A DNA stretch of 64,000 nt from Chrysomallon squamiferum (GCA_012295275.1 CM022675.1:6324001-6388000); one strand, 5' to 3'. Shown: positions 61,396-63,907, counted from the first letter of the stretch. Translations and numbers: made by a program. The notes: generated by a model not told the origin, from the letters alone.

Positions 61396-63907
61396 GAGAC
61401 AACTGTATTTGCAAAGAACGAAACGTAAATAAAAAATGGCTGACAGTAACTTCGATTGATTGCTTGTGTGGGTGTCAAGATTACTACATAACATCGTGTT
61501 GTTTGAAATGTTGTTTCCATGGCGACAGTAATCTTGTCCTCGAAGACGGTTCGGTAGTAAAAATGAAACATCTGACTGTGGGTCAGAAGGTTCTCACAGG
61601 TAAAATTATTATGACAGTTATTAATTTAAATGAAGTAATATTAGAGACATTGCACAACTCTGGACTAAGTAACACAGTCCGATTATTATTTGCTAAAGAC
61701 GAGAAAGCAAAGTAGCAACACATTGGTCGAATATAAAACATGTTGTAAAACAAACCAAACTACAACTATCGAGATAGACCGATCATAAAACTTCCCATTC
61801 TACATGTCTCTTTGATCGACAGCGAGAAGAACACGATATCACCGAAGATGTTCAAGGAAGAACTCGAGAGCTTATTCTGAAATCTTACCTGAGAAAGCAG
61901 TGGTTCGAGGACGGATGAGGAGCAGTTCAGTGTTCGTTTTGTCTTGGAGGTTCTGCTGCGTGCTAACACACCACGCGAACGTCAAGCAAGAAATGATGTA
62001 CGAGTTAGCTAATGAAGAGAGAACTGAAAATAAAACAGGTTGAAGACCAATGGGACTCTTCACAAAGATATACCAGTTTGTGTAAAGAAAATGCTGATAG
62101 ACCACCTTCAGAGTTGCGTCAGTCTATGATACAGACAACGCCAGTCACAAAAACCAAGACAGAACATGGCCGTAACAAGATTCTTTTTGAAATGTGGCAA
62201 AAAGCTCCGACTTGAAAGAAGCAAAATCCTCGATTCTAGCTATTAATATTTTATACTTTTTAAATAAAAACAATTTGCGAAGAAATGTGACGTTTTAGAG
62301 AGAAACTCTGGAACCTTGAATAGAAAAGTGTACAATTCCTGTCTACTTCAAGCAATGACATTTTGCGCTGAAACATGGTAACGTGTTGTTGTTGGTGTTG
62401 TTGTTTGTTTTGCAGTGGCTGTTGTTGTTGTTGTTGTTTTTTCAGTGGGAAGCAGATGACGGATATTTTCTGAGGTAGCAGCTGCATTCGTAAAATACTG
62501 AGTAATCGTGAAAGATAGTAACCAAGAAATATTCATTCTCTGTTCGTCACAACTTTAAGTGTTACAGCATAAGCAGATTATTGTCACAACCAATTCTTGC
62601 AGCTTATCGTAGCGTCCATTAAAATGTAGACATCATCAGTGTTTATAAGATATTTTCTGATCTTTTAGGAACTATTTCGACTATGTTTTCATATCATTAT
62701 TATTGTTGTTGTTGTTATGTTATTGTTTTTGTTTTTGTTTGTTGTTTCTGGGGGGATTCTGTTCTTCTTTTTTTTATGCTTATAGTCACATTTTTTTTGT
62801 TTTTTTTTGTTTGTTTTTTGTCAAGTGGAAAATGGAAAACGGATGTTTTCTGAGGTAAGAACATTCATTAAACGACTTCCCCAGATCAACGCCACACATC
62901 GAACGTTTACGACAGAAAAGGGAAATCACTTTTCCATCACAGGGGACCATCTGATATTTATGTCCAACAACAACAAAACTGCTGATATGAGAGCCGAGTG
63001 AGTATTCATATGTTTCTGTCTGCGTTGTTCGTTTCACAGTGCATAAGAACATCTGTTGTTTTGTCTGTCTATGTGCTTGTGAATCTAACGTCTTTCCAGC
63101 TATGTTATTAAGTTTTTTTAAAAACACTAAAGAAACAAAGACAGACGTACAACATCATACTGGAATATACACAATCACTGAGTGAAAACAGCTATAATTT
63201 ACAAAGCCAAAATGTATATAAGAACAACACACACACACACACAGACATAAACCAGGACATGTACCAGTGAAATGTATACAGGACGGACATGATTCATATA
63301 CTTCTCTCTTTCACACTAAGGAATGCCGTATTGGTGAAACGAGGTGATTATATTTTCTCCACACTTTCGTGTCCAAGTGGTCTTTGTGCAGAGCGAGTTG
63401 CTGATATTTCCTTTTCTGAAAAACCAGGTAATAATAATAATAATAATAATAATAATAATAATAATAATAATAATAATAATAATAATAATAAATAATAATA
63501 ATAATAATAATAATAATAATAATAATAATAATAATAATAATAATAATAATAATAATAATAATAATAATAATAATAATAAAAATAATAATAAATAATAATA
63601 ATAAAAATCTTTGGTTCTGGTTAATATTACATAAGAAGGTTTTTTAATTAGATGAAAATTAAAAAATTAATATTTTTCACAGGGTTGTACGTTCCACTGA
63701 CTGATACAGGAACTCTTGTTGTGGATGGAATCTTAGCTTCGAGTTACGTTTATTTTGATCACGATATTGGCACAGTTCGGCGTGACACCGTTCCGGTGGT
63801 TTCCTTGGTTACTGAAACCATGGGAACAAGACGGATTGTGTCCTATTCTAAAACTCATGAATACCTTTTCTGAAATGTTAATACCTTCCTCTGTCAACAC
63901 AATATAA
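61396..63907 (+). CDS. Hedgehog-related Hint (Hog) domain protein with Cys-rich N-terminal peptide; exons 61396-61599, 62826-62997, 63321-63427, 63683-63907; +1 frameshift near 63766
   Basis: Phase-consistent GT-AG joins give C|CFHGDSNLVLEDGSVVKMKHLTVGQKVLTVENGKRMFSEVRTFIKR...FSITGDHLIF...AVLVKRGDYIF...ERVADISFSEKPGLYVPLTDTGTLVVDGILASSY: Hint motifs CF, TxxH and GxYxPLTxxGTxVVDGxLAS. Confidence 0.88.
61765..62246 (+). other. GC-richer decayed coding-like fragment inside a Hint-gene intron, origin unknown
   Basis: One frame reads as non-repetitive protein with scattered stops (ISPKMFKEELESLF*...RLKTNGTLHKDIPVCVKKMLIDHLQ...). Confidence 0.25.
62446..62590 (+). pseudogene. Degenerate tandem duplicate of Hint exon 62826-62997
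   Basis: TTTCAG|tgggaagcagatgacggatattttctgaggta vs CAAG|tggaaaatggaaaacggatgttttctgaggta; same phase, in-frame stops. Confidence 0.65.

What the first reader, a model, noticed from the sequence alone, without database searches (positions are those of the whole stretch)
61396..63907. Hedgehog-type Hint autoprocessing domain fused to a short 8-Cys peptide instead of a Hedge domain
Seen: four phase-consistent exons assemble a full Hint domain, directly preceded by DNCICKERNVNKKWLTVTSIDCLCGCQDYYITSCCLKC (8 Cys in 38 aa), with Cys1 at 61512. Known: hedgehog-related Hog proteins self-cleave at Cys1 and release their N-terminal domain; non-Hedge partners are known in nematodes, cnidarians and some lophotrochozoans. 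Inference: this precursor may self-release a disulfide-rich peptide (signal, toxin or defence-like) that I do not recognise; nearby decayed exon copies suggest a local family.
Basis: partly seen in the sequence, partly recalled or inferred. Interest (0 to 1): 0.8.

Follow-up and report, generated by a model that had tools for sequence, protein, structure and literature searches.

The report
Hedgehog-type precursors releasing varied cysteine peptides
An animal gene (probably a snail's) is predicted to join a secretion signal and an eight-cysteine peptide to the self-cutting domain of Hedgehog proteins, and DNA sequencing data point to tens of related copies with a similar cutting domain but different peptides, so the family likely releases a varied set of small disulfide-bonded peptides, although this copy's tail is frameshifted and no cutting has been shown.

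Summary
Observation confirmed and extended. No Hedge domain. DNA contigs of three runs pile 30-72 times deeper on the Hint exons than on the peptide, and stop matching at the cut site: likely tens of paralogues with conserved Hint and divergent peptides. One outside relative keeps the 8-Cys frame. Against a simple Hedgehog-like reading: Cys1 and TxxH are kept, but the Asp46 and Cys143 equivalents are not (Lys/Arg; Ser, mostly Asn in paralogues), and this copy has one base more than all 11 contigs crossing 63760-63770, shifting the sterol-recognition tail; error or pseudogene is unresolved. Best reading: secreted Hog precursor family that likely releases unlipidated disulfide peptides; cleavage, splicing and function untested. 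Hog domains with short Cys-rich N-termini, and Hh-related expansions in limpets (Lophohog), are published; I could not compare with Lophohog sequences. New variant of a known kind; interest 0.5.

The parts
60335..60401 (+).
   Evidence: ATG, Lys2, hydrophobic core (9-residue Kyte-Doolittle means 1.8-2.8 from residues 7-14) and GT donor in phase with exon 2; no signal-peptide predictor or RNA available, cut site after residue 20 or 23 is inferred
61396..61511 (+). Exon 2, 5' part: 8-Cys peptide (38 aa, about 4.4 kDa), Cys at -36,-34,-17,-15,-13,-5,-4,-1 from the cut
   Evidence: single-copy-level depth at >=88% identity in 3 of 3 runs of this organism; 8-Cys frame shared with P0001
61512..61599 (+). 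Exon 2, 3' part: Hint residues 1-29, Cys1 at 61512-61514; residue -1 is Cys where Hedgehog has Gly
   Evidence: Pfam Hint 10-40; ungapped alignment to Sonic and Drosophila Hedgehog across the cut site
62826..62997 (+). Exon 3: Hint core with TxxH (Thr68 62939-62941, His71 62948-62950); Lys45/Arg46 at the Asp46 site
   Evidence: Pfam Hint E 1.1e-8, 35.4 bits, above the gathering score; numbering
63321..63427 (+). Exon 4: central Hint
   Evidence: AG/GT and phase fit; no Pfam hit alone; deep paralogue cover and a paralogue acceptor at the same place (tables 2, 5c)
63683..63770 (+). Exon 5, 5' part: end of Hint; Ser143 (63742-63744) at the place of Hedgehog Cys143
   Evidence: Pfam Hint 139-166; alignment to Sonic Hedgehog 343-368
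63760..63770 (+). One-base frameshift relative to the family; the Hint frame then ends at the stop 63871-63873
   Evidence: 11 of 11 contigs crossing the site in 4 runs have one base fewer than the window (table 4); listed ones are paralogue-like (5-18 differences)
63770..63907 (+). SRR-like tail (45 codons, hydrophobic, one central Pro early on) in the shifted frame, stop at 63905-63907
   Evidence: translation of the frame; deep paralogue cover to about 63860; no Pfam or NCBIfam hit alone, so SRR identity is inferred from position and make-up
58457..58710 (+). Decayed copy of exon 5 with lost AG acceptor and three internal gaps
   Evidence: score 201 versus best 42 of 300 shuffles; nhmmer E 1.8e-18
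62422..62495 (+). Decayed copy of the exon 3 start, inside intron 2, with in-frame stops
   Evidence: blastn E 2.4e-4; score 58 versus best 38 of 300 shuffles, not found by nhmmer; stops seen

Best explanation
This is one copy of a likely large family of secreted hedgehog-related (Hog) precursors in which a predicted signal peptide and a variable 8-Cys peptide precede a conserved Hint domain, which would cut behind the peptide and likely release it without cholesterol. Steps: (1) exon 1 takes the precursor into the ER (inferred); (2) the eight Cys form up to four disulfides (inferred); (3) Cys1, helped by the intact TxxH motif, forms a thioester at the Cys(-1)/Cys1 bond (inferred from Hedgehog and inteins); (4) with no Asp at the 46 site the thioester is resolved by water or a thiol and not by sterol (inferred), freeing a peptide of about 38-41 residues; (5) paralogues keep the cutting module and Cys frame but vary the residues between, giving a repertoire of extracellular ligands or defence/matrix peptides (architecture supported by DNA contigs, role inferred). 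This copy as assembled has a frameshifted tail and is either a young pseudogene or misassembled.
For: Gene model and phases. Hint hits in order, no Hedge; cut site aligns with Hedgehog's. Cys1 and TxxH present. Summed contig depth at five Hint positions is 29.5-71.9 times the depth over the peptide in 15 of 15 run-by-position values (the tool warns that this is not a copy number). Paralogue contigs stop matching at 61509, three bases before Cys1, and their loose ends keep the Cys pair at -5/-4 with other residues around it (table 7; X7 three contigs, X6 one; read by hand). Matches also end at the exon borders, with other introns beyond, so the copies are intron-bearing genes. Of 18 listed Hint variants 10 are synonymous and none is a stop (expected share 0.23-0.28; P 0.003-0.014; the tables are cut to the best-supported rows). 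P0001 has 8 Cys before its Hint start, 5 of 8 at the same distance from the cut (78 of 20000 shuffles), and seems to share the intron position (inferred from its read-through). In Hedgehog, Asp46 mutants and SRR-less protein still cleave with DTT but not with cholesterol (PMC9163320, PMC7242414; passages).
Against: Cys143 is Ser here and mostly Asn in paralogues (63743 G>A in 64%, 66%, 84%, 64% of depth in X1, X6, X7, X3); in Hedgehog, C143A/D block processing in cells and Cys143 is said to be needed for DTT cleavage too (PMC12054796). The Asp46Ala Sonic Hedgehog reporter accumulates as precursor in cells (PMC9772569), so loss of Asp46 need not give spontaneous release. Residue -1 is Cys, not Gly. 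This copy's tail is out of frame. Only 10 codons of two paralogue peptide ends and one full outside relative were seen, so 'hypervariable peptide' rests on little sequence; copy number is a rough ratio inflated by overlapping contigs. No function of the peptide was tested; P0001 was picked by a search with the same exon, so its shuffle test is biased upward.
Confidence: 0.5

Rival explanations
1. The Hint domain in this family no longer cuts; the whole precursor is secreted and works as a peptide-plus-Hint extracellular or matrix protein.
For: Both Hedgehog-specific catalytic residues (Asp46, Cys143) are replaced here and in most paralogue depth; Cys143 mutants of Hedgehog do not process; residue -1 is not Gly.
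Against: Cys1 is kept here and in P0001, TxxH is kept here, and no listed variant touches these codons (tables cut); sequence conservation switches on exactly at the cut site; inteins cleave N-terminally without these Hedgehog-specific residues (established knowledge; notes that Asp303 and Cys400 are absent from inteins).
Confidence: 0.2
2. The family is the published Lophohog (or another limpet Hh-related) group and works like Hedgehog: cholesterol is attached to the released peptide, which acts as a lipid-tethered signal.
For: Lophohog is described as a Hog domain plus a unique N-terminal domain in limpets, a chiton and an annelid; one limpet has 11 Hh-related genes (PMC5103448, PMC9695228). 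Paralogues keep an in-frame SRR-like tail; one paralogue class keeps Cys143 (loose end behind 63740 in X1, X6, X3) and some have Glu at position 45.
Against: No Asp among Hint residues 40-50 of this copy and Ser/Asn at 143 in most depth; D303E and D303R are listed with the mutants that favour DTT cleavage, and D303A abolishes cholesterol transfer. Family identity and chemistry are separate questions: it may be Lophohog (my estimate about 0.4) without sterol transfer.
Confidence: 0.12
3. The family uses a different Hint chemistry: Ser143 accepts the peptide as an ester, or Asn143 cyclises as in inteins and clips off the tail, so the peptide is handed to another acceptor (a matrix protein, a lipid) or the tail is shed.
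For: Cys143 is reported to act like the intein +1 nucleophile, a role that Ser can fill in inteins (established knowledge); Asn at this place dominates the paralogue depth in 4 of 4 runs and is read directly in one loose end (X1, before 63768).
Against: The residue before is Ser, not the His that usually assists Asn cyclisation (recalled); no experiment or structure; the Asn share rests on summed contig depth.
Confidence: 0.1
4. Whatever the family does, this particular copy is a pseudogene: the extra base is real and the copy makes at most a precursor with a junk tail.
For: 11 of 11 crossing contigs lack the base; two decayed exon copies lie within 3 kb, as expected of birth-and-death turnover; the site is not a homopolymer run.
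Against: All splice sites, the start codon and about 210 codons up to the shift are intact; no contig of this exact copy is listed across the site, even in runs that may be the source, so an assembly error is open; contigs of X1 and X3 also differ from the window at 63902-63906; an SRR-less Hedgehog still cleaves with DTT. This rival can hold together with the best explanation.
Confidence: 0.45
5. The peptide is not part of the mature protein: the true acceptor lies elsewhere and the Cys-rich stretch is intron read-through.
For: Splicing is not observed; the peptide part has no deep paralogue cover.
Against: A pyrimidine tract plus CAG at 61395 in phase with exon 1; the same 8-Cys frame in P0001; Cys pair kept in paralogue loose ends; one X6 contig matches both the intron before 61384 and the Hint start with other letters between (table 5).
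Confidence: 0.04

Closest known systems
Lophohog and other limpet/chiton/annelid Hh-related genes (De Oliveira et al. 2016, PMC5103448, passages; PMC9695228, passages; original description by Burglin not held)
   Same: Hog domain behind a non-Hedge N-terminal domain in a lophotrochozoan; gastropod expansion (11 Hh-related genes in Lottia cf. kogamogai)
   Different: The passages give no sequence or Cys pattern for the Lophohog N-terminus, so identity is open; here the family seems several times larger and the peptides diverge while the Hint stays >=85% alike in DNA
Enoplean nematode and cnidarian Hog proteins with short or Cys-bearing N-termini: Ts Xhog1/2 (Enop motif, 6 Cys), Ts Xhog3 (34-residue peptide), XC Shog1/2, Nv 120428 (Burglin 2008, PMC2362128; sections 5, 7, 8, 14 read whole)
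   Same: Signal peptide + short N-terminal peptide + Hog domain; predicted self-release
   Different: Different Cys number (8 here), small families there; sequences not compared
Hedgehog C-terminal autoprocessing domain (Pfam Hint PF01079; Sonic 7e2i, Drosophila 6td6/1at0)
   Same: Cys1-Phe start, TxxH, domain length (position 143 falls on the same number), hydrophobic tail after the Hint
   Different: No Hedge domain; Cys at -1; no Asp46; Ser/Asn at 143; three introns inside the Hint; tail out of frame in this copy
Mussel MgCRP-I cysteine-rich peptides (PMC4558851, passages) and conopeptide-type precursors (recalled)
   Same: Multigene family, conserved precursor part, variable Cys-framed mature peptide, pseudogenes among the copies
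   Different: Those are cut from an N-terminal pro-region by convertases at dibasic sites and have a 6-Cys frame; here the conserved part is a C-terminal self-cleaving domain and the frame is C-C-C-C-C-CC-C; no homology claimed
Biomphalaria glabrata AIG1-Hint fusion (PMC7053062, passages)
   Same: A snail Hint domain behind a non-Hedge partner
   Different: Partner is a GTPase without signal peptide

Membership tests
Hog (hedgehog-related) proteins | Hedgehog-type Hint domain | tested here: met
   PF01079 is the best family for 3 of 4 exons; best PDB sequence hits of exon 2 profile and exon 5 are Hedgehog proteins, weakly
Hog (hedgehog-related) proteins | Signal peptide and non-Hedge N-terminal domain | tested here: met
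   Hydrophobic exon 1 in phase (no dedicated predictor); no Hedge hit
Hog (hedgehog-related) proteins | SRR/ARR tail after the Hint | tested here: inconclusive
   Present in frame in paralogue contigs, out of frame in the window copy; no profile hit for the tail alone
Hog (hedgehog-related) proteins | Cys1 and TxxH | tested here: met
   Cys 61512; Thr68/His71
Hog (hedgehog-related) proteins | Actual autocleavage | not testable with these tools
   needs biochemistry
Hedgehog proper | Hedge signalling domain (PF01085) | tested here: not met
   no hit; only about 38-41 residues lie between signal peptide and Cys1
Hedgehog proper | Asp46 general base | tested here: not met
   no Asp in Hint residues 40-50; Lys45/Arg46, placed by counting from Cys1 and TxxH; Glu45 in some paralogue contigs
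Hedgehog proper | Cys143 | tested here: not met
   Ser in the window; Asn in most paralogue depth, Cys in one class
Lophohog | Shared lophotrochozoan N-terminal domain | not testable with these tools
   original paper not held; supplements of PMC5103448 unreadable; no full-length relative retrieved
Lophohog | Hog domain falls in the Lophohog clade | not testable with these tools
   no reference sequences could be obtained
Lophohog | Host is a lophotrochozoan | not tested
   earlier AI notes on this genome say snail; I did not verify it
Catalogued Cys-rich peptide families (defensins, knottins, metallothioneins, conopeptides) | Profile or sequence match of the 38-residue peptide | tested here: not met
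   Pfam best E 0.2, NCBIfam none, PDB sequences none at E<=10; weak tests for a short peptide

The most novel reading that the evidence does not exclude
A mollusc lineage has turned the Hedgehog Hint domain into a reusable self-cleaving tag for a library of dozens of fast-diverging, four-disulfide secreted peptides: a conopeptide-like system that needs no convertase, with a rewired active site (no Asp46; Ser or Asn at 143) that releases or transfers the peptide by non-cholesterol chemistry.
Probability: 0.3. Interest if true: 0.8.

Novelty: new variant of a known kind. Interest (0 to 1): 0.5.

Why it matters
Hog proteins with non-Hedge partners are known only from sequence in most animals, and what they release and whether they attach sterols is an open question. 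A family with tens of natural variants at the two Hedgehog-specific catalytic positions (46: Lys/Glu; 143: Ser/Asn/Cys) is a ready-made test set for Hedgehog autoprocessing chemistry, and the 8-Cys peptides would be an uncatalogued class of small disulfide-rich secreted peptides in molluscs. If the family is simply Lophohog, the gain shrinks to its size, peptide diversity and active-site changes.

Tried and rejected
Expression: no RNA holder listed; all laid runs were DNA or unlabelled contigs and showed no exon-exon joins; run X9 of another organism had 0 contigs laid. No whole genome held, so copies could not be counted. Word-based protein searches with exon 2, exon 3 and the exon 5 start, among longer proteins only: 9, 2 and 29 candidates, none scoring (weak evidence). 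Exact look-up of 9 window ORFs: 0 of 9 in the collection. Metagenome scan: 1 locus of 304 candidate stretches, L001, rejected as chance (stop codon inside, no Hint, open frame on the other strand of a phage-like contig). Genome scan: 1 of 116, L002, a bacterial match to Hint residues only. ESM Atlas: only Hint clusters, top score 0.90 with low recognition, and 0.78 for P0001. AlphaFold of exon 2 with two sequences: pLDDT 52, no usable peptide fold; Foldseek no match at E<=0.001, weak Hint-strand matches (1at0, PI-SceI). Exon 3 alone: pLDDT 72, no match. The spliced protein as a whole was not scanned against profile libraries or folded. A minus-strand Cys-rich look-alike at 50591-50463 (tblastn E 0.14, stop inside) was dismissed. 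Considered and rejected: retrocopies or a Hint-bearing transposon as the source of the deep cover (matches end at exon borders with other introns beyond); true Hedgehog (no Hedge). Ten paper searches gave no listing that describes an 8-Cys Hog partner or a mollusc Hog family of this size; one search listed 30 of 174 and 20 of 25 papers; PMC8476170 passages were irrelevant.

Full report
Observation. The window is AT-rich animal-type DNA (22-38% G+C per 2 kb, microsatellites, spliceosomal introns). No genome is held for it; earlier AI notes on the same genome call it a snail, which I did not test. Cys1 is at 61512, preceded by 38 residues with 8 Cys. Pfam Hint matches three of the four exons in profile order, one above the gathering score on its own, and none of seven queries matches Hedge. 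A two-sequence profile of exon 2 aligns without gaps across the cut sites of Sonic and Drosophila Hedgehog (E 0.034 and 0.32), fixing the cut between Cys61 and Cys62 of the model.

First, an upstream exon at 60335-60401 starts with ATG, encodes a basic residue and a hydrophobic core, and ends in a phase-1 donor that fits exon 2; it makes a 246-codon model with a predicted signal peptide and a mature peptide of about 38-41 residues. Second, the Hint frame runs into a stop at 63871-63873, whereas the hydrophobic tail expected after a Hint lies in another frame ending at 63907. In four runs, all 11 contigs that cross 63760-63770 have one base fewer than the window (X1 292.6 of 292.6 depth, X6 352.8 of 352.8, X7 363.3 of 363.3, X3 160.9 of 161). 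The listed ones differ from the window at 5-18 letters and are paralogues; none identical to this copy is listed across the site. So the family has an in-frame tail, and this copy is either a young pseudogene or misassembled; I cannot tell which.

The family. Contigs of three runs of this organism laid at >=88% identity give low, flat depth over the peptide part of exon 2 (43, 13-15 and 105) and over most intron sequence, but far higher depth over the Hint parts of exons 2, 3 and 4 (up to 3522, 1164 and 13338); exon 5 behaves alike in four runs. At five Hint positions the ratio to the peptide bin is 29.5-71.9 in 15 of 15 values. The tool warns that summed contig depth is no copy number, and overlapping contigs inflate it, so I read this only as 'tens of copies'. 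Matches break off at the exon borders, with different intron letters beyond and, for exon 4, a paralogue acceptor at the same place, so these are intron-bearing paralogues. In exon 2 they break off at 61509, three bases before Cys1; the loose ends of X7 (three contigs) and X6 (one) keep the Cys pair at -5/-4 but have other residues around it (read by hand, table 7). One X6 contig matches the intron before exon 2 and the Hint start but not the 123 bases between. Of the 18 Hint variants that the cut tables list, 10 are synonymous and none is a stop, against an expected share of 0.23-0.28 (P 0.003-0.014; 18 and 15 further rows were not shown). Two decayed exon copies lie next to and inside the gene. 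The picture is a birth-and-death family with a conserved cutting module and divergent cargo, though very little peptide sequence of the paralogues was seen.

Outside relatives. An exhaustive search of 1.84 billion representatives with exon 2 gave 1 hit at E<=0.001, P0001 (E 1.2e-5, 47% over 57 residues), an unnamed singleton from a 552-kb contig that may come from this or another species. It has 8 Cys before a Hint start, five at the same distance from the cut as here (-15, -13, -5, -4, -1), reached by 78 of 20000 shuffles; the peptide-only alignment score is reached by 30 of 20000 (biased upward, as the hit was chosen with this exon). Its Hint part is 16 of 29 identical and then runs into repeats that look like read-through of a donor at the same place (inference). 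No full-length relative was retrieved, and the peptide matches no Pfam, NCBIfam or PDB entry. Structure prediction was uninformative.

Active site. Hedgehog needs Cys1, Asp46, Thr69, His72 and Cys143 (PMC12054796, passages). Here Cys1 and TxxH (68-71) are kept. There is no Asp in Hint residues 40-50: Lys45/Arg46, with Glu45 in some paralogue contigs (X6 all, X7 175.6 of 228, X1 none). Position 143 is Ser (aligned to the Sonic Cys; number); 64-84% of paralogue depth carries a change that makes it Asn, and one class has Cys. Residue -1 is Cys. Published mutants point both ways: Asp303 (46) mutants and SRR-less Sonic Hedgehog cleave with DTT but not cholesterol (PMC9163320, PMC7242414; passages); but the D46A reporter stays as precursor in cells (PMC9772569, passages) and C143A/D block processing. 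Cholesterol transfer is therefore unlikely for most copies, and cleavage itself is only probable.

Mechanism. I favour (0.5): secretion, disulfide formation, thioester formation at Cys1, and release of an unlipidated 8-Cys peptide by hydrolysis or thiolysis; the family supplies a range of such peptides for extracellular signalling, defence or matrix roles. The architecture and the residue changes are shown; splicing, cleavage, disulfides and function are inferred. Rivals: dead Hint, uncut protein (0.2); Hedgehog-like sterol attachment (0.12); Ser/Asn-143 transfer or tail-clipping chemistry (0.1); peptide not in the transcript (0.04). Separately, this copy is a pseudogene with probability about 0.45.

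Known systems. Burglin 2008 (PMC2362128; abstract, passages and sections 5, 7, 8, 14 whole) already describes secreted Hog proteins with N-termini of 15-34 residues and Cys-bearing novel motifs in nematodes and cnidarians. Lophohog, a Hog domain with a unique N-terminal domain, is reported from limpets, a chiton and Capitella, and one limpet transcriptome gave 11 Hh-related genes (PMC5103448, PMC9695228; passages). A snail AIG1-Hint fusion is published (PMC7053062, passages). For the logic of a conserved precursor with variable Cys-framed cargo, mussel MgCRP-I is the closest analogy (PMC4558851, passages), without homology. Ten searches listed nothing describing an 8-Cys Hog partner or an expansion of this size. 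The scan's own notes hold no look-alike.

Verdict. It works like a Hog precursor and meets the testable Hog features; it is not Hedgehog; Lophohog membership is untested. New variant of a known kind.

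Noticed in passing
window 62165-62244: An 80-base stretch of intron 2 has 30-70 times the surrounding depth in three runs, with loose ends on both sides, and no second copy in the window: an interspersed repeat or a conserved intronic element of the paralogues.
   Followed up: partly
window 16232-17425, 27777-29096, 41986-43299: Three related long single-exon ORFs (398-440 codons; coiled-coil-like start, weak beta-propeller Pfam hits for the two scanned) within repeated blocks of the window.
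   Followed up: partly
window about 33200-36400 and 7780-8210: 43-base minisatellite arrays.
   Followed up: no
window 52480-53232: Tc1/mariner-like transposase remnant in several frames; DDE_3 E 7.9e-10.
   Followed up: no
window minus strand 1823-2035, 4196-4429, 48554-48796: Fibronectin type III exons of a large gene on the other strand (weak fn3 hits); whether the Hog gene lies in one of its introns was not checked.
   Followed up: no
window 61455: Run X7 has a different letter here, changing Ile43 of the peptide to Val: an allele within the peptide.
   Followed up: no
window 63902-63906: Near-identical contigs of X1 and X3 differ from the window at two letters and lack one base next to the stop of the tail frame: another allele or a second local error in the assembly.
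   Followed up: no
window 61467-61511: The peptide Cys at -15 aligns without gaps to the last Cys of the Hedge domain of Sonic and Drosophila Hedgehog; possibly a remnant of a truncated Hedge end, possibly chance.
   Followed up: no
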